Below the pieces are notes generated by a model. The model did no database searches and was not told the DNA's origin. It saw only the letters and a program-made list of their open reading frames with translations. Positions 1-4,546 of a stretch of 5,616 nt of DNA are shown here, one piece after another. The stretch covers positions 1 to 5,616 of IMG/VR virus record IMGVR_UViG_2778261085_000003. One strand, 5' to 3'. Every line of letters starts with the position of its first letter. The stretch's first letter is position 1. Made by a program: the position numbers and the translations under genes. The stretch is from a virus. Lineage: Duplodnaviria; Heunggongvirae; Uroviricota; Caudoviricetes.

Positions 1-324
1 GGGATGCTTTAAATCACAGGAATTAATGTTGCACTCAGTAAAATGGTTTTTAAGGGGTTCTATTCGAATCCCTTTCTGTTTCATTAACAAGCCAAATCCC
101 TTATCAATGATATCCATTAATTCCATGAAGTATTTTTCATGTAAATCCTGGTTATCAGAGAGTTGCTTCTCTTCGTACAGCCCGATAAAGGCACGACGCA
201 CGTTACCGGATATAGTATCGATGGTTTCTTTTTCTACGGTACTCAGGTCAAGAGTCGCCAGTTGAGAACGAACTATATTCGCTGCCATTTCCTGGAATGG
301 TTTTGGTAAATCTTTAAATTCCAT
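1..324 (-). CDS. Hypothetical protein, partial (N-terminal 108 codons visible; continues beyond left edge)
   Basis: ATG at 324-322 (minus) preceded by GAGG about 6 nt upstream (plus 331-334 region); frame is open on the minus strand all the way to position 1 (no stop, checked triplet by triplet). Translation begins MEFKDLPKPFQEMAANIVRSQLATLDLSTVEKETIDTISGNVRRAFIGLYEEKQLSDNQDLHEKYFMELMDIIDKGF. Not in the supplied ORF track because it has no stop inside the window. Region is AT-rich (41 G+C in the first 120 nt by hand count). Function not recognised. Confidence 0.5.
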   Translation of the reverse strand, partial: MEFKDLPKPFQEMAANIVRSQLATLDLSTVEKETIDTISGNVRRAFIGLYEEKQLSDNQDLHEKYFMELMDIIDKGFGLLMKQKGIRIEPLKNHFTECNINSCDLKHP

Positions 325-346
325 TATTAGCCTCGTTGGTTAGCTA

Positions 347-565
347 TTAACGTGGGTATGTAATCATTCTGGCAATGCTTAATGCCGCTGCTTTTTCCAG
401 CCTGGTGATATCCTGCTCCAGAGCGGACAGATTTTCAGCCTGCTTAGCCCTGGCTTCATTGGCCCATTTCAAATCCTGCGCTGCATTAATTTTCTGGCGC
501 ATCCACTCATAAAGTTCATCATCGGTATAGTCTGGCGCGATGATGACGGGTTCTCGTTTCTGCAT
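347..565 (-). CDS. ydfC: YdfC-like small prophage protein (72 aa)
   Basis: ORF in track; ATG at 565-563 preceded by GAGGAA about 7 nt upstream; length and position (third small gene downstream of the dicA-like gene, same strand) match the ydfA-ydfB-ydfC arrangement of the Qin prophage as I recall it. Identity is from recalled gene order and length, not from a verified alignment. Confidence 0.7.
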   Translation of the reverse strand: MQKREPVIIAPDYTDDELYEWMRQKINAAQDLKWANEARAKQAENLSALEQDITRLEKAAALSIARMITYPR

Positions 566-594
566 ACTGATTCCTCGCGGTGCTGTTTCGCTTA

Positions 595-723
595 TCAGCC
601 GTTAGATTTTGCCGAACTGGAAAGCGCCTGTTTAAATTCGCTGAAGCTGAGAGCTTCAGCGCCTTCGGCAAGGCTTTCGAAGTATTCTTCGTAAGACTTT
701 TCCATGATTGTGTCGAAATCCAT
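595..723 (-). CDS. ydfB: YdfB-like small prophage protein (42 aa)
   Basis: Not in the ORF track (too short). Minus-strand ATG at 723-721 preceded by AGGTGA; hand translation gives MDFDTIMEKSYEEYFESLAEGAEALSFSEFKQALSSSAKSNG then TGA at 597-595. Acidic, protein-like composition; 42 aa matches the recalled length of YdfB; sits between the ydfA-like and ydfC-like genes. Confidence 0.6.
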   Translation of the reverse strand: MDFDTIMEKSYEEYFESLAEGAEALSFSEFKQALSSSAKSNG

Positions 724-724
724 A

Positions 725-880
725 TCACTCACCTGAGTTTCTTTCCAGCCAGCGACGCGCGCCAGTTTCGGTTTTAAACGTTTTGCTTTTGGTATACGTC
801 ATCGCGGTGAACGTTCCGTCATGGTTGGGAAACACGCCGTATACCAGATATTCGTTGTTACCAAGATCGATAGTATCCAT
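725..880 (-). CDS. ydfA: YdfA-like small prophage protein (51 aa, DUF1391-like)
   Basis: Track ORF 725..934 starts at a GTG; the internal ATG at 880-878 has a better ribosome-binding site (GAGG about 5 nt upstream within AAGGGGAAATGAGGTCAGC) and gives MDTIDLGNNEYLVYGVFPNHDGTFTAMTYTKSKTFKTETGARRWLERNSGE, 51 aa, the recalled length of YdfA. Stop TGA at 727-725 lies 1 nt from the ydfB-like ATG. Confidence 0.65.
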   Translation of the reverse strand: MDTIDLGNNEYLVYGVFPNHDGTFTAMTYTKSKTFKTETGARRWLERNSGE

Positions 881-957
881 GCTGACCTCATTTCCCCTTA
901 ACGCCGGGGCAGCGGAACTGTTTGCTGAGAACACCGTGCGGTGTCTTGATGTAAAGT

Positions 958-986
958 AGATTAGTCATAGCTAACGGCTTGGTCAA
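958..986 (-). promoter_or_regulatory. Candidate sigma70 promoter for the ydfA/ydfB/ydfC-like operon (dicB-operon promoter equivalent)
   Basis: On the minus strand: TTGACC (plus 981-986), 17-nt spacer, TAATCT (plus 958-963). An operator-like palindrome overlaps the spacer and -10; a second lies just upstream of -35. Predicted by eye only. Confidence 0.4.
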
Positions 987-1009
987 GTGTTTTTGTTTGT
1001 CATGGCTAA
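961..1009. promoter_or_regulatory. Pair of operator-like 14-bp palindromic sites (putative DicA-like repressor binding sites)
   Basis: TTAGTCATAGCTAA at 961-974 and TTTGTCATGGCTAA at 996-1009 share the half-site pattern TT(A/T)G(C/T)-N4-(G/A)CTAA with the two sites in the dicA/dicC intergenic region. Confidence 0.45.
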
Positions 1010-1026
1010 CATTTTTGACAGAAAAA

Positions 1027-1054
1027 AAGATAACACATTGATTGTGTTATCTTT
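1027..1054 (-). terminator. Inverted repeat overlapping the dicA-like stop codon; candidate intrinsic terminator for the repressor transcript
   Basis: AAAGATAACACA (1027-1037) / TTGAT loop / TGTGTTATCTTT (1043-1054) is a perfect 12-bp inverted repeat; on the minus strand it is followed by a run of seven T (plus 1021-1027 is a run of A). Stem is AT-rich, so terminator strength is uncertain; it could instead be a protein-binding palindrome. Confidence 0.35.
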
Positions 1055-1454
1055 TGTTTGTTCGTTGACGGGCTTTTAATAATTCTTCAAAGAGTTTGTT
1101 GAAATTTTTTACTCGGGCGCGCATCTCGGTGAGCTGAGCGTCCTGTTCTGATTCAGGCAATGCATTAAAAAGTTCAAGGAGCTCGTGTTCTTTGGGGGAT
1201 AAAGCAACTGGATCCTCAATAGGTGGTGATGGCTGCTTGTCTTCATCGCCAAATAGAATCCATGTTGGCGAGCACTGCAGTACATTGCTAAGTGCAAAAA
1301 GATTCTTCCCTGTTGGTTCGCTATCATCCCGTTCCCATTGTGAAACCGACACATGAGAAATTTTCAGGGCTTTAGCAAGAGACCTTTGGGTGTATTTGAG
1401 GTTTTTTCGGCGATATCTAATGCGTTCGCCAATGGTTAAATTTTTTGTATCCAT
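1047..1454 (-). CDS. dicA: DicA-like repressor (CI-type, XRE-family helix-turn-helix), 135 aa
   Basis: ORF in track; N-terminal helix-turn-helix segment (QRSLAKALKISHVSVSQWERDDSEPTGKNLFALSNVL); length and sequence closely match my recollection of E. coli Qin prophage DicA; divergent from a Cro-like gene across a short operator-bearing intergenic region. Confidence 0.9.
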   Translation of the reverse strand: MDTKNLTIGERIRYRRKNLKYTQRSLAKALKISHVSVSQWERDDSEPTGKNLFALSNVLQCSPTWILFGDEDKQPSPPIEDPVALSPKEHELLELFNALPESEQDAQLTEMRARVKNFNKLFEELLKARQRTNKR

Positions 1455-1536
1455 AGTTAGCCAATGCTAAATCTTATTGACTATGTTTTTGTTAACATCT
1501 ATTTTGTTAGTCATGACTAACAATTGGGTGCTTTAA
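1455..1536. promoter_or_regulatory. Divergent promoter/operator region between the repressor and Cro-like genes
   Basis: Two 14-bp palindromes: TTAGCCAATGCTAA (1457-1470, imperfect) and TTAGTCATGACTAA (1507-1520, perfect). Plus-strand candidate promoter for the Cro-like gene: TTGACT (1477-1482), 17-nt spacer, TATTTT (1500-1505), so the predicted start site falls inside the second palindrome. Minus-strand candidate -10 TAAGAT (plus 1471-1476) with a weak -35 would give the repressor a very short leader. Confidence 0.55.
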
Positions 1537-1767
1537 ATGCTTAAAACAGACGCGCTTTTGTATTTCGGTTCAAAAACAAAACTTGCACAAGCTGCTGGTA
1601 TTCGTTTGGCTTCGCTTTATAGCTGGAAAGGGGATCTAGTTCCTGAAGGTCGCGCGATGCGCCTGCAAGAGGCATCCGGCGGGGAACTTCAGTACGACCC
1701 CAAAGTTTATGACGAATATCGTAAGGCAAAGCGTGCGGGGCGGTTGAACAATGAAAATCACCCCTGA
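1537..1767 (+). CDS. dicC: DicC-like Cro-type regulator, 76 aa
   Basis: ORF in track; first gene divergent from the repressor; helix-turn-helix-like segment (GSKTKLAQAAGIRLASLYSWKG); length and sequence match my recollection of Qin DicC. Confidence 0.85.
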   Translation: MLKTDALLYFGSKTKLAQAAGIRLASLYSWKGDLVPEGRAMRLQEASGGELQYDPKVYDEYRKAKRAGRLNNENHP

Positions 1768-2284
1768 ACAGGTTTGTGAGGCTCTGGATGCCTGGGTATG
1801 CCGACCAGGAATGACACAGGAGCAGGCGACGATATTAATCACGGAAGCATTCTGGGCTCTGAAAGAACGCCCGAACATCGATGTTCAACGCGTCACGTTT
1901 GATGATGGCGCGGTTGATCAACGGGCACTGGGCGTTAACCGGGTGAAGATATTCGAACGCTGGAAAGCTATCGACACCAGGGATAAGCGGGAAAAATTCA
2001 CGGCGCTGATTCCGGCAATTATGGAGGCTATCCGGATCAGTGATTTCAGGTTGTATTGTGAAATTACTGACGGAAAAAGCATTACGTACATGATCTCCGG
2101 GTTAAACAAAGAATATGGCGATGTGGTGGAGTCCGGGCTGCTTTTTGCGGATCCAGCTGTTGTGGAACGTGAGACTGACGAGCTTATAGAAAAAGCTATT
2201 GCTTTCAAGCATGCGTATCGTCAGCAATACCAACATTACTTTGCAGATAAACAAATATCTTCCTGGGGTTCGTATGAGTATTGA
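1751..2284 (+). CDS. YdaT-family protein, 177 aa
   Basis: ORF in track; starts 17 nt before the DicC-like stop; the N-terminal MKI... and the segment REKFTALIPAIMEAIRISDFRLYCEITD resemble Rac prophage YdaT (REK..LIPAI..R..C motif) as I recall it; the position after the Cro-like gene is typical of this family. Confidence 0.7.
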   Translation: MKITPEQVCEALDAWVCRPGMTQEQATILITEAFWALKERPNIDVQRVTFDDGAVDQRALGVNRVKIFERWKAIDTRDKREKFTALIPAIMEAIRISDFRLYCEITDGKSITYMISGLNKEYGDVVESGLLFADPAVVERETDELIEKAIAFKHAYRQQYQHYFADKQISSWGSYEY

Positions 2285-3314
2285 TGCACTGCAATGGGCT
2301 AAAAAGGTGAAAACCGGCAGTTCATCAAGTAAGTCAGTATTGACCTGGCTTGCTGATATGTGCGGTGCCGATTTGTGTGCATACCCGTCAGTATCTGCAC
2401 TGGCTGAAGTAACTGAACTGAACAAAAAGACTGTTCAGGACAGCTTACGACACCTGATGGAGATTGGGTTAATTGTTGATACCGGTGAGAGAAAAGGCCG
2501 AACAAAGCAAATCGTGGTGTACCGACTTATCGGTGTAGAAGAAAGTGTTGCCGAGCCTGAATACACCCAAAAACGGGAGTCTTTAAAGGTGGGTAAAATT
2601 GGTGCTGTTAATAAAAACAGTACCGAAAACGGTTATGTTTCAGCACAAAACAGACCCAAAAACGGAACTCTTTTCTGCATGGAAAATAACCAAAGACACC
2701 CAAATTTTCCATCAAAGACACCCAAAAACGGATCACGGAACCCAAAGGAACCAAAAGATCTAAACCCCACACATAACGCACGTGAGAGTGCTCCGACCAG
2801 TGAGCTGGAGGTTTTGTCGTTACAGGCAACGCCCCCTGAATTCCTGGATGGCTTGAGCGAACCTATCGGAAAATTTCCGATGACCAATGGTTGGCATCCG
2901 TCGCCTGATTTTCGACGGCGGGCTGCACTGTGGGGAGTTGCTCTGCTGGAGCCGGAATTTACACCTGCTGAACTTGTCGCATTCCGGGATTACTGGAGTG
3001 ATGAGGGAAAAGTGTTCACGCAGGTTCAGTGGGAGCAGAAATTCGCCCGCCACGTAAATCACGTCAGGGCGCAGGTTAAACCAGTCAGCAAGGGAGTAAA
3101 CCATGCAGCAGCACCAGGTGGCACCGAATCACGGGCAGTTCAGGAAATTCGGGCAGCACGTGAGAAGTGGGAACGTGAAAACAGATTTATCAGCGACGGA
3201 AACGGCCTGGAAGCTGTGGGAACTCATGGGGGAGATTTATTCGAATCGCTGGACCCAGAAGAACGGTGCCGCGCCTACGAAGCTCTGGATTGCACAGATT
3301 GGCGCGATGACTGA
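2274..3314 (+). CDS. Phage replication initiation protein: N-terminal helix-turn-helix DNA-binding domain plus DnaT C-terminal-like domain
   Basis: Track ORF begins at 2199; I prefer the in-frame ATG at 2274, which overlaps the upstream stop (ATGAGTATTGA, stop at 2282-2284). N-terminus (SVLTWLADMCGADLCAYPSVSALAEVTELNKKTVQDSLRHLMEIGLI) looks like a winged helix-turn-helix of phage initiators. The C-terminal segment GKFPMTNGWHPSPDFRRRAALWGVALLEPEFTPAELVAFRDYWSDEGKVFTQVQWEQKFARHV resembles the C-terminal region of E. coli DnaT (..RLAALWGVAL..YW..EGKVF..VQW..) from memory. The 3' end is uncertain because of overlap with the next gene. Confidence 0.8.
   Translation: MSIDALQWAKKVKTGSSSSKSVLTWLADMCGADLCAYPSVSALAEVTELNKKTVQDSLRHLMEIGLIVDTGERKGRTKQIVVYRLIGVEESVAEPEYTQKRESLKVGKIGAVNKNSTENGYVSAQNRPKNGTLFCMENNQRHPNFPSKTPKNGSRNPKEPKDLNPTHNARESAPTSELEVLSLQATPPEFLDGLSEPIGKFPMTNGWHPSPDFRRRAALWGVALLEPEFTPAELVAFRDYWSDEGKVFTQVQWEQKFARHVNHVRAQVKPVSKGVNHAAAPGGTESRAVQEIRAAREKWERENRFISDGNGLEAVGTHGGDLFESLDPEERCRAYEALDCTDWRDD
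2563..2757. repeat. Iteron-like direct repeats inside the initiator gene (candidate replication origin)
   Basis: Exact ACCCAAAAACGG at 2565-2576, 2654-2665 and 2720-2731; variant ACCGAAAACGG at 2622-2632; CAAAGACACCCAAA at 2691-2704 and 2712-2725; GGAACC(C)AAAG doublet at 2737-2757; all in the same orientation, next to an A+T-rich stretch (about 2585-2620). Confidence 0.5.
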
Positions 3315-3768
3315 GCAGCAAATCCGGCAGGTCTGCCGCCAGTGCATGGACCGCTGCCGGGCGGGTGAAACATGGCCTCCTGACCTTGCTGAGTTTGTGG
3401 CGCTGATTTCAGAAAGCGGAGCCAATCCATTCGGTCTGACAGTGGATGCCGTGATGGAGGAGTACCGTCGCTGGCGCAATGAGTCTTGGCGATACGACGG
3501 AAGCGATAAATATCCGTGGTCTCAGCCTGTGCTGTATCACATTTGCCTCGAGATGCGTTCAAAGGGGATTGAGAGCCAGATGACCGAAGGGGAGTTAAAA
3601 CGACTTGCAGAACGGCAGCTGACGAAATGGGCAAAGCATGTTGGTAATGGACTGAGCGTTCCGCCAGTCCGGCGACAACTGGCGGCCCCCAAACGCCCGT
3701 CGGGACCAACGCCAATTGAGTTGCTGAAACAGGAGTATGAACGCCGGAAAGCAGCTGGGTTTGTTTGA
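3103..3768 (+). CDS. Lambda P-like replication protein (helicase loader), 221 aa if started at 3103
   Basis: ORF in track; the ATG at 3103 has a strong ribosome-binding site (AAGGGAG about 6 nt upstream). Recalled lambda P aligns over the body (PDLAEFVAL vs PGQFVAW; YPWSQPVLYHICLEM vs YPWKSNAHYWLVTNL; MTEGELKRLAERQL vs LTDAELRRKAADEL) and weakly from about residue 60 (KLWIAQIGAMTEQQ vs RQWVLAFRENGITTMEQ). Alternative starts are ATG 3226 and ATG 3307 (ATGACTGA overlap with the upstream stop). Confidence 0.7.
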   Translation: MQQHQVAPNHGQFRKFGQHVRSGNVKTDLSATETAWKLWELMGEIYSNRWTQKNGAAPTKLWIAQIGAMTEQQIRQVCRQCMDRCRAGETWPPDLAEFVALISESGANPFGLTVDAVMEEYRRWRNESWRYDGSDKYPWSQPVLYHICLEMRSKGIESQMTEGELKRLAERQLTKWAKHVGNGLSVPPVRRQLAAPKRPSGPTPIELLKQEYERRKAAGFV

Positions 3769-3801
3769 GTTGATAAGTAAGTTTACCGGGAGGAAATTTT
3801 A

Positions 3802-4530
3802 ATGGAGACCGTTTTTGACGCACTGAAAGCAATGGGAAAAGCCTCTTCCCAGGGAGTGGCTGCACGTCTTGGAATGACCAGGGATGAGGCGATTAACGAG
3901 CTGTGGAAACTGAAGCGTCGCGGGGAAGCTGATAACAATGGTCCGATGTGGTGGCTGATTCAGTCCGGAGAAAGCGAATCACATTCACAGGTACCGAAAG
4001 TGACAGCGCAAATGCTGATTGGTGCGATAGAGCAACATGGTCCTAAAACGGCGGATGAGCTGGCATTGATGTTCAGAATCACTTCCCGTCGGGCGAATTC
4101 ATCACTGGTAATGGCAATCAGCAAAGGACGCCTGATTCGCGTAAATCAGAACGGTAAATTTCGTTATTGTATACCTGATGAAAAAATTAACGATATGAGT
4201 GCGGAAAGCACCATGCTGGTGCAAGTAGGTTCGGACACCGACAAAAACGAAAAGCAGAGTGATCGCAATCGTTTTTTGCCAGCCAAAGAGCATGGTCAGA
4301 GAGAAGATACTGTGGCAGACATTGTGCAGCCGCTGCCATCGTTCACCGAAAAGCGAATGAATTACCAGGTTTTACCATCGCTGCATATGGCAAACCGCGA
4401 ACTGCGCCGGGCGAAAAGTCATGTCCAGAAGTGGGAGCGTGTCTGCGCCGTGCTGCGGGAGCTGAACAGGCACCGGGATATTGTCCGACAGATTGTCGAT
4501 TCCTCCAGTCGTATTGTGTCGGAAAAGTGA
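3802..4530 (+). CDS. Hypothetical prophage protein, 242 aa, with two winged-helix-like segments and a basic helical C-terminus
   Basis: ORF in track; strong ribosome-binding site (GGGAGG about 9 nt upstream); protein-like composition. Possibly a DUF1627-type prophage protein, but that assignment is from memory and not verified. Confidence 0.8.
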   Translation: METVFDALKAMGKASSQGVAARLGMTRDEAINELWKLKRRGEADNNGPMWWLIQSGESESHSQVPKVTAQMLIGAIEQHGPKTADELALMFRITSRRANSSLVMAISKGRLIRVNQNGKFRYCIPDEKINDMSAESTMLVQVGSDTDKNEKQSDRNRFLPAKEHGQREDTVADIVQPLPSFTEKRMNYQVLPSLHMANRELRRAKSHVQKWERVCAVLRELNRHRDIVRQIVDSSSRIVSEK

Positions 4531-4546
4531 TTCCTAGGGAGGGCTT

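What the first reader, a model, noticed from the sequence alone, without database searches (positions are those of the whole stretch)
1..346. AT-rich unknown gene occupies the slot where Qin carries dicF/dicB
In the Qin prophage, as I recall it, the operon continues after ydfC with the DicF small RNA and the cell-division inhibitor DicB. Here the ydfC-like stop (347) is followed after only 22 nt by the start of a different protein (MEFKDLPKPFQEMAANIVRSQ...), leaving no room for a DicF-like RNA. The gene is strikingly AT-rich (about 34% G+C in the first 120 nt versus about 68% in 3301-3360, by hand count), suggesting separately acquired cargo. This position in the repressor-side operon commonly carries host-modulating or phage-exclusion functions.
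Basis: partly seen in the sequence, partly recalled or inferred. Interest (0 to 1): 0.55.

Follow-up and report, generated by a model that had tools for sequence, protein, structure and literature searches.

The report
Uncharacterised accessory gene in dicBF operon
The AT-rich gene at the left edge is a real but common, uncharacterised prophage gene inserted between ydfC and the DicF/DicB cell-division inhibitors, which are still present just beyond the window, so it adds to them rather than replacing them.

Summary
A minus-strand ORF (MEFKDLPKPFQ...) starts 22 nt after the ydfC stop, has a GAGG ribosome-binding site, runs off the left edge, and is AT-rich (34.2% G+C in 1-120, against 47.5% for the window). 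The interpretation that it replaces dicF/dicB is wrong. A contig 99.96% identical to the window continues with the rest of this 124-codon gene, a conserved two-hairpin element, a convergent 148-aa ORF, a DicF identical to the K-12 copy, and then dicB. Compared with K-12 Qin, the gene is a clean insertion between ydfC and that hairpin element. Homologous DNA occurs in 1487 of 5426 complete E. coli genomes, where listed hits are annotated "hypothetical protein". The protein is PHROG 6937 (function unknown). It has no Pfam, NCBIfam, PADLOC, PDB or fold match. dN/dS of 0.17-0.41 indicates a real coding gene. The model is a small soluble three-helix protein with a disordered tail. Its N-terminal ~55 residues are shared by other lambdoid early proteins that carry different C-termini. 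It occurs without any convergent neighbour in at least 523 genomes, so it is not half of an obligate pair. The most likely role is an early-lytic, protein-binding accessory factor, but the function is untested. This is ordinary cargo of low novelty.

The parts
1..324 (-). geneX, 5' 108 of 124 codons (ATG at 324..322; the last 16 codons and the stop lie beyond the left edge). Uncharacterised lambdoid early-operon protein, PHROG 6937.
   Evidence: Translation. Full-length 124 aa in the 99.96%-identical L017 7677-8051. phrog_6937 E=1.6e-69 over 1-108 of 124. dN/dS 0.17-0.41. 38.6% G+C.
325..346 (-). 22-nt ydfC-geneX spacer with a GAGG Shine-Dalgarno (334..331) 6 nt before the ATG. There is no terminator or credible promoter, so geneX is read from the operon transcript.
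   Evidence: Sequence. The only promoter-like hit (350..323, 9/12) ends on the start codon, leaving no room for a leader.
347..565 (-). ydfC (72 aa), 71/72 identical to K-12 YdfC.
   Evidence: phrog_1744.
595..723 (-). ydfB-like small ORF (42 aa).
   Evidence: phrog_2061; annotated ydfB in relatives.
725..880 (-). ydfA-like ORF (DUF1391, 51 aa), first gene of the leftward operon.
   Evidence: PF07151 E=1.1e-26; annotation in relatives.
961..1009 (.). Two operator-like palindromes (961-974 and 996-1009, matching TTAGTCATGACTAA) in the promoter region of the leftward operon, the dicBp / pL equivalent.
   Evidence: 3 matches in the window, 0.18 expected, 0 of 200 shuffles reach 3. The third copy is at 1507-1520, between dicA and dicC.
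1047..1454 (-). dicA-type HTH repressor (135 aa).
   Evidence: annotated dicA in relatives; PF01381 in L013-L018.
1537..1767 (+). dicC (P22 Cro-like), divergent from dicA. It marks the immunity region and so identifies the operon that holds geneX as the early-left operon.
   Evidence: PF14549; annotation.

Best explanation
Positions 1-324 (-) are the first 108 codons of a 124-codon protein gene. This gene is optional cargo of the DicA-repressed early-left (dicBF) operon of a Qin/Rac-like lambdoid prophage; the near-identical contigs belong to an LT-II enterotoxin-converting prophage.

Shown. The gene is inserted cleanly between ydfC and a conserved two-hairpin element. That element precedes the dicF leader, DicF and dicB, and all of these are retained downstream. 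The gene is under purifying selection. It is widespread in E. coli prophages and also present in an isolated phage (Evi). It has no detectable relative of known function.

Inferred. It has no promoter of its own. It is therefore silent in the lysogen and is translated from the ydfA-ydfB-ydfC-X-(dicF)-dicB transcript once DicA repression is lifted. The product is a ~14 kDa, mildly acidic (pI 5.5), soluble protein, predicted as a three-helix bundle (residues 8-83) with a disordered tail. It has no membrane segment, and no DNA-binding family or fold was matched. Its N-terminal helical hairpin (~55 residues, motif KDLP..IQ.IA...NVR.AF.GLY) is shared by at least five PHROG families of lambdoid early proteins with unrelated C-terminal modules.

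My best guess is that it works by protein-protein binding during early lytic growth. The conserved hairpin would serve as a common docking or dimerisation module, and the variable C-terminal part would supply target specificity. That places it with the non-essential host-modulating or counter-defence factors of the early-left operon, alongside Kil, DicB, Ral, Gam and cIII. Confidence is about 0.9 for identity and context and about 0.35 for this functional class.
For: Context. L017 is 99.96% identical to the window. It carries geneX (124 aa), the convergent c148, DicF, dicB, DUF1482, exonuclease, xis and int. Its DicF is identical to K-12 DicF.

Clean indel against K-12 Qin, with a conserved hairpin element (dG -25.6 kcal/mol, z = -3.05) in all arrangements.

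Operon control. Operator-like palindromes flank the leftward promoter. A 22-nt spacer with an SD precedes the gene.

Prevalence. Homologous DNA is in 1487 of 5426 complete E. coli genomes. GeneX alone followed by the hairpin and dicF leader is found in at least 523 genomes, for example O26:H11 WP_000394528.1. It sits in the same slot in phage Evi and the PPompW prophages.

Coding. dN/dS is 0.17-0.41, including 0.39 for the N-domain against the 46%-identical Stx-phage PA2 gp25.

Family. phrog_6937 matches full length; the N-terminal 1-55 also matches phrog_1363, 2151, 9419 and 33007, all of unknown function. Only 44 of 1.84 billion representatives match the profile, and the named homologues are all enterobacterial.

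Structure. AF2 gives helices 8-23, 32-55 and 59-83, with pLDDT 70-83 for residues 1-60 and a tail below 50.
Against: There is no experimental or homology-based evidence for any function. Pfam, NCBIfam and PADLOC are empty. Foldseek against BFVD and PDB, and a PDB sequence profile, give nothing below E=0.02. No paper mentions the protein.

The AF2 model is only moderate (mean pLDDT 63, 12 sequences), and a three-helix bundle is not diagnostic. Conservation of the N-terminal module could partly reflect its role as a recombination flank rather than as a shared docking surface.

The window ends inside the gene, so the downstream DicF and dicB are inferred from near-identical contigs and not seen in this sequence. 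Frameshifted or truncated copies exist (for example L028, 64 aa), which shows the gene is dispensable.
Confidence: 0.6

Rival explanations
1. One reading: geneX is novel cargo that replaces DicF/DicB in this prophage and takes over their host-modulating position.
For: No DicF match inside the window. The gene starts 22 nt after ydfC, where Qin begins its long dicF leader.
Against: Contigs 99.8-99.96% identical to the window carry DicF, and L017 also carries dicB, 1.0-1.2 kb downstream of geneX. Every related arrangement with geneX retains DicF and dicB or kil.
Confidence: 0.03
2. GeneX is one half of a two-gene module with the convergent ORF that overlaps or follows its 3' end. The convergent gene would be a lysogen-expressed exclusion or defence (or toxin) protein. 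GeneX, made on induction, would be its cognate antidote or 'escape' factor, so that the prophage is not aborted by its own system, as esc is for sieB in P22 and lambda (the sieB/esc comparison is from my own knowledge).
For: The C-terminal type of geneX co-varies with the convergent gene: X124 with c73, X106/109 with c91, X133 with c92, X135 with c77. For the three pairs checked (c73, c91, c77) the 3' ends overlap by 11-23 nt, and their convergent genes share a conserved 5' platform of hairpin plus AGGAGG SD. In the window's prophage type a convergent 148-aa ORF with two hydrophobic helices follows; it has a weak PADLOC RTasSLATT match, E=0.002.
Against: GeneX stands alone, with the hairpin and dicF leader directly after its stop, in at least 523 complete genomes. 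The same X124 form is found with c73, with c148, or with nothing. c148 is in only 71 of 5426 genomes, against 1487 for geneX. c148 and c151 lie in a second slot beyond the hairpin, and c151 occurs without geneX. The co-variation is what physical linkage of overlapping genes would give anyway. The SLATT hit is weak and the c148 model is poor (pLDDT 51).
Confidence: 0.1
3. GeneX is itself a lysogeny or immunity accessory, such as a cIII-like modulator of the lysis-lysogeny decision or a superinfection-exclusion protein, rather than a host-takeover factor.
For: It sits in the immunity-proximal part of the early-left operon, where lambda carries cIII, sieB and ral (established lambda gene order, from my own knowledge). 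It is a small helical protein.
Against: No similarity to any such family. It has no membrane segment, which SieB-type proteins have (from my own knowledge). It is optional: in this non-random sample, 56 of 86 loci that have both ydfC and DicF lack it.
Confidence: 0.15
4. The ORF is not a functional gene but a chance or decaying reading frame in AT-rich filler DNA.
For: No function is known. Truncated or frameshifted copies exist. The C-terminal tail is variable and predicted to be disordered.
Against: dN/dS of 0.17-0.41 across pairs down to 46% amino-acid identity. A proper SD and ATG. Full-length conservation in over a thousand contigs. A PHROG family with full-length matches.
Confidence: 0.03

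Closest known systems
dicBF operon of cryptic prophage Qin (ydfA-ydfB-ydfC-dicF-dicB-ydfD), E. coli K-12
   Same: Same operon backbone: DicA-type repressor, DicC, ydfA, ydfB and ydfC (YdfC 71/72 identical). The near-identical contig has an identical DicF, followed by dicB and a DUF1482 gene in the ydfD position.
   Different: Qin goes from ydfC straight into the hairpin element and the untranslated dicF leader (340 nt from ydfC to dicF). This prophage type has geneX (375 nt) inserted before the hairpin and a convergent 148-aa ORF cassette (~710 nt) after it, so ydfC to dicF is about 1380 nt.
PHROG 6937 and its sister PHROGs 1363, 2151, 9419 and 33007 (all 'unknown function')
   Same: GeneX matches phrog_6937 end to end (1-108 of the 124-position profile, E=1.6e-69; the 124-aa relative from L002 matches at 3e-82). 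It shares the N-terminal ~55-residue module with the other four.
   Different: None for 6937; it is a member. The sister families have unrelated C-terminal modules (up to 212 aa). In Stx phages (PA2 gp25) the homologue sits among the accessory genes downstream of the recombination genes, not after ydfC.
Small early-left accessory proteins of lambdoid phages (Kil, DicB, cIII, Ral, Gam)
   Same: Same kind of place and regulation (repressor-controlled leftward early operon), small size, dispensability and patchy distribution. The class comparison rests on established lambda biology.
   Different: No sequence or fold similarity to any of them. No phenotype is known. The UTI89 filamentation screen covered a dicBF locus that lacks geneX, so it says nothing about it.

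Membership tests
Qin-type dicBF (early-left) operon | DicA-type repressor and DicC divergently transcribed, with repeated operators | tested here: met
   dicA-like 1047-1454 (-) and dicC 1537-1767 (+). Operator-like palindromes at 961-974, 996-1009 and 1507-1520.
Qin-type dicBF (early-left) operon | ydfA-ydfB-ydfC at the promoter-proximal end | tested here: met
   ORFs at 725-880, 595-723 and 347-565 (-). DUF1391 E=1.1e-26. YdfC 71/72 identical to K-12.
Qin-type dicBF (early-left) operon | DicF sRNA and dicB downstream on the same strand | tested here: inconclusive
   Not inside the window, because it ends within geneX. Present in the 99.96%-identical L017 (DicF 76.7 bits, identical to K-12; dicB PF05358), and DicF also in L015. 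Met by proxy only.
PHROG 6937 | Full-length match to the family profile | tested here: met
   E=1.6e-69, residues 1-108 on profile positions 1-108 of 124. The 124-aa relative from L002 gives E=3e-82 over 1-124.
Toxin-antitoxin or two-gene defence module | Obligate adjacent partner gene that co-occurs with it | tested here: not met
   GeneX is followed directly by the hairpin and dicF leader, with no partner, in at least 523 genomes. Its partners vary (c73, c77, c91, c92, c148) or are absent.
Known anti-phage defence proteins (PADLOC-DB) | Match to a defence-system profile | tested here: not met
   No PADLOC hit for geneX at E<=1.
Moron (autonomous cargo unit in a prophage) | Composition distinct from the flanking phage genes | tested here: met
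   37.1% G+C (GC3 37.6%) against 48.4% for ydfC (GC3 50.7%). Clean indel relative to Qin.
Moron (autonomous cargo unit in a prophage) | Own promoter and terminator, expressed from the repressed prophage | tested here: not met
   Same strand as the operon, 22 nt after ydfC. The only promoter-like hit ends on the start codon. Expression itself was not measured.
DicB/Kil-type cell-division inhibitors | Sequence membership (PF05358 DicB, PF27398 KilR) | tested here: not met
   No Pfam hit above noise for geneX.
DicB/Kil-type cell-division inhibitors | Filamentation on expression | not testable with these tools
   Needs an expression experiment. The published UTI89 screen covered a locus without geneX.

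The most novel reading that the evidence does not exclude
The ydfC-dicF interval may be an undescribed two-slot cargo hotspot inside the dicBF operon. Slot 1, before a conserved hairpin element, holds geneX with or without a small convergent gene that is driven from a shared antisense 'platform' (hairpin plus AGGAGG SD). Slot 2, after the hairpin, holds larger convergent genes: c148, which is 2-TM and faintly SLATT-like, or c151, which has a coiled coil and a zinc ribbon. On this reading the convergent genes are lysogen-expressed exclusion or abortive-infection effectors. GeneX, with its conserved N-terminal hairpin and swappable C-terminus, would be an induction-time adaptor that neutralises them or host defences. 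Convergent transcription would provide the switch between the two states.
Probability: 0.1. Interest if true: 0.6.

Novelty: new member of a known kind. Interest (0 to 1): 0.22.

Why it matters
The practical value is mainly corrective. The window does not show a prophage that has lost DicF and DicB; it shows one with an extended dicBF operon.

The gene belongs to a family present in roughly a quarter of complete E. coli genomes, including EHEC O26, ETEC and LT-II strains, and in Stx-phage relatives. Nothing is known about that family. A phenotype for it would therefore annotate thousands of 'hypothetical proteins'. It might also explain why the DicF leader tolerates about 1 kb of inserted cargo.

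Inserting a translated gene and a convergent gene upstream of DicF may also change how DicF is processed from the operon transcript. That bears on DicF and DicB dosage in pathogenic strains.

Tried and rejected
1. Family scans of geneX against Pfam, NCBIfam and PADLOC gave only noise (VLPT E=0.004-0.02, below cut-off).

2. An HMMER profile search of 1.84 billion representatives gave 44 hits. With two word-indexed searches of 5.8 billion proteins, only enterobacterial 'hypothetical proteins' were found, with no informative domain fusion.

3. The AF2 model with Foldseek against BFVD and PDB, plus a PDB sequence profile, gave no match below E=0.02. The best was a 52-aa homologue from phage phi191. 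The AcrIIC4, KIX and TFIIB hits at E~1 are generic helical-bundle noise and were rejected.

4. The H94-C98-C103-H107 pattern in the tail was considered as a zinc knuckle. It was rejected because C98 and C103 are each replaced in close homologues.

5. An obligate pairing with the convergent ORF was rejected on the genome counts.

6. The AF2 model of c148 was too poor (pLDDT 51) to justify a fold search. Its SLATT resemblance rests on one weak PADLOC hit.

7. Literature searches for ydfA/B/C, dicF/dicB and the peptide string found nothing on this protein. Jobling 2016 on the LT-II prophage is not in the held library.

8. An early BLAST result suggested that a remnant of the geneX start survives in 'empty' prophages. 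Direct inspection showed this was a chance extension of the alignment.

Full report
**Observation.** The window is the immunity region of a lambdoid prophage. On the minus strand it carries:
- a dicA-type repressor (1454..1047);
- ydfA (880..725), ydfB (723..595) and ydfC (565..347);
- after a 22-nt spacer with a GAGG ribosome-binding site, an ORF that starts at 324 and runs off the left edge after 108 codons (MEFKDLPKPFQEMAANIVRSQ...).

YdfC is 71/72 identical to K-12 YdfC. The first 324 nt fall in the lowest 2.4% of windows of that size. No DicF match exists inside the window. The description is therefore accurate.

**What lies beyond the edge.** An exact-protein look-up with the window's DnaT-like replication protein returned contigs that BLAST showed to be 99.8-99.96% identical to the window. 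L017 is 99.96% identical over window 1-5305. Reading down the operon, it continues with:
- the remaining 16 codons of the gene (124 aa in all, ending ...KVEANYKISINH);
- a two-hairpin element (GTTCTCCAC-N7-GTGGAGAAC, then GCCGGA-N12-TCCGGC; -25.6 kcal/mol, z = -3.05);
- a convergent 148-aa ORF on the other strand;
- the conserved dicF leader;
- a DicF that scores 76.7 bits over the full Rfam model and is identical to K-12 DicF;
- then dicB, a DUF1482 gene, an exonuclease, xis and int.

In the more distant relatives L001, L002, L006, L012 and L014, the gene is likewise followed by DicF and then dicB or kil. L022 has dicB annotated downstream and a one-piece match through the dicF leader. The gene is therefore an addition upstream of dicF and dicB, not a substitute for them. 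This conclusion is indirect for the window itself, because the window ends inside the gene.

**Anatomy of the insertion.** I aligned the ydfC-to-dicB segment of the different prophage types and of K-12 Qin. In Qin, the ydfC stop is followed by about 20 nt, then GGTTAGTAATTAAGGA, and then the same hairpin. In the window's type, the 375-nt ORF sits exactly between that spacer and the hairpin. The roughly 55-nt hairpin element is present in every arrangement.

I classified 86 loci that contain both ydfC and DicF. This sample is not random; it consists of the best YdfC matches. The result:
- 56 have the short Qin-like interval (330-340 nt);
- 28 carry a geneX form: 124 aa alone; 124 aa plus c73; 106/109 aa plus c91; 133 aa plus c92; 135 aa plus c77; 124 aa plus c148; and one frameshifted 64-aa copy;
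- 2 carry only a convergent 151-aa ORF.

The small convergent genes c73, c91 and c77 lie between geneX and the hairpin and overlap the 3' end of geneX by 11-23 nt. They share a common antisense 5' platform, the hairpin followed by ...CCTCAGGAGGGTGAAATG. c148 and c151 lie in a second slot beyond the hairpin. The interval is thus a cargo hotspot with conserved flanks.

**How common, and is it a pair?** DNA homologous to window 1-346 is found in 1487 of 5426 complete E. coli genomes, 723 of them with at least 80% coverage. RefSeq calls it 'hypothetical protein' in the listed hits (for example WP_000394537, WP_000394534, WP_000394528).

I built a synthetic junction query of the geneX 3' end, the hairpin and the dicF leader, with no convergent gene. 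It matches at 80% or more of its length in 523 genomes, and the listed hits match in one piece over the full length. The O26:H11 example confirms the order ydfA-ydfB-ydfC-geneX-(dicF)-dicB with nothing in between. c148 occurs in only 71 genomes. GeneX is therefore not half of an obligate two-gene module. The match between geneX C-terminal type and convergent-gene type is what physical linkage of overlapping genes would produce on its own.

**Is it a real gene, and what is the protein?**
- *Selection.* Nei-Gojobori dN/dS between homologues is 0.17-0.41. It is 0.39 for the N-terminal 50 codons against the 46%-identical Stx-phage PA2 gp25. This indicates purifying selection on a protein.
- *Family.* The protein matches PHROG 6937 end to end. 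Its first ~55 residues also match PHROGs 1363, 2151, 9419 and 33007; all are 'unknown function'. Alignments show near-invariance of residues 1-53 (KDLP..Q..A...NVRRAFIGLYEE), with in-frame mosaic switches after about residues 7, 32, 53 and 93 to unrelated C-termini.
- *Search results.* Pfam, NCBIfam and PADLOC give nothing. A profile search of 1.84 billion representative proteins finds only 44. The named homologues are enterobacterial, mostly E. coli, and there are no informative fusions.
- *Structure.* AlphaFold2 (12 sequences, mean pLDDT 63; 70-83 over residues 1-60) predicts three helices (8-23, 32-55, 59-83) and a disordered tail. Foldseek against BFVD and PDB, and a PDB sequence profile, return nothing significant.
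- *Properties.* The protein is 14.3 kDa with pI 5.5. I see no hydrophobic segment in the sequence. The H/C pattern in the tail is not conserved.

**Regulation (inferred).** Three copies of a TTAGTCATGACTAA-like palindrome occur. Two lie in the promoter region upstream of ydfA and one lies between dicA and dicC; 0.18 are expected by chance, and 0 of 200 shuffles reach three. GeneX has no credible promoter of its own. The dicBF operon of Qin is described as one DicA-controlled transcript from which DicF is processed (PMC5069750). GeneX should therefore be silent in the lysogen and made on derepression.

**Best explanation.** GeneX is an optional, horizontally shuffled protein gene of the early-left operon. 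Given a small soluble helical protein with a conserved N-terminal hairpin and exchangeable C-terminal modules, it most likely acts by binding another protein during early lytic growth. That would put it among the host-modulating or counter-defence accessory factors. I put about 0.9 on identity and context and about 0.35 on this functional class; nothing here tests function. The rivals are scored in the rival-explanations section: replacement of dicF/dicB (rejected), cognate partner of the convergent gene, lysogeny or exclusion accessory, and spurious ORF.

**Comparison and novelty.** The backbone is the Qin dicBF operon. The gene is a bona fide member of PHROG 6937. It fails the tests for a toxin-antitoxin or defence pair, for PADLOC families, for DicB/Kil membership, and for the 'own promoter' criterion of a moron, while it meets the compositional criterion. 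It is catalogued but uncharacterised, and no paper in the searched library mentions it. I rate it as a further member of a known kind of feature, lambdoid early-operon accessory cargo, with low surprise. The most novel reading not excluded is the two-slot hotspot with an induction-time adaptor opposed to lysogen-expressed convergent effectors (probability about 0.1).

Noticed in passing
L013 17492-19417; L015 10949-12871; L016, L018 (contigs 99.5-99.8% identical to the window): The prophage type that the window belongs to carries heat-labile enterotoxin type II genes (PF01375 Enterotoxin_a plus PF06453 LT-IIB) and a pertussis-toxin S1-like gene downstream of the antiterminator. The window therefore probably comes from an LT-II-converting Rac/Qin-like prophage of the kind that Jobling describes in PMC5917428.
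   Followed up: partly
L017 7152-7598 (+), about 130 nt beyond the window's left edge: A convergent 148-aa ORF (37% G+C) with two hydrophobic helices, phrog_6315, and a weak PADLOC RTasSLATT match (E=0.002). It is present in only 71 of 5426 E. coli genomes and sits in a second cargo slot between the hairpin element and the dicF leader. The same slot holds a 151-aa coiled-coil/zinc-ribbon ORF in L005. The AF2 model is poor (pLDDT 51).
   Followed up: partly
L002 6739-6960, L001 5705-5980, L020 4386-4619, L049 (convergent to geneX): Small convergent genes (c73, c91, c77, c92) overlap the 3' end of geneX. c73, c91 and c77 were checked and share the same antisense 5' platform, the conserved hairpin followed by CCTCAGGAGGGTGAAATG. 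c91 and c92 are 28% identical, E=4e-5. The others are unrelated by BLAST. This looks like a cassette-exchange site.
   Followed up: partly
window 4966-5385 (+): An Ead/Ea22-like ORF is split by an in-frame TGA at 5098-5100 (...VFVCQKRN*EADGVIAECH...). Both halves are in the same frame, so this is a pseudogene or a natural stop.
   Followed up: partly
window 1025-1055: A perfect 13-bp-stem palindrome (AAAAGATAACACATTGATTGTGTTATCTTTT) overlaps the 3' end of dicA and is scored as a terminator on both strands. It separates dicA from the operator and promoter region of the ydfA operon.
   Followed up: no
window 52-74 (+): A terminator-like hairpin with a T-run on the plus strand lies inside geneX (AAGGGGTTCTATTCGAATCCCTT TCTGTTT), about 180 nt downstream of the c148 stop in L017. 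It could terminate the convergent transcript, or it could be chance.
   Followed up: no
L017 1912-2094 (-), L014 2334-2516: C4 antisense RNA (RF01695) and isrK (RF01394) matches lie next to an ORF6N-domain gene near the integrase end of the same prophage. This suggests a second, P1/P7-style antirepressor control module.
   Followed up: no
window 3103-3314: A long ORF starting at 3103 overlaps the end of the DnaT-like gene (2274-3314). The lambda-P-like replication gene is called with different starts in different assemblies (180, 153 or 140 aa), so its true start is unclear.
   Followed up: no
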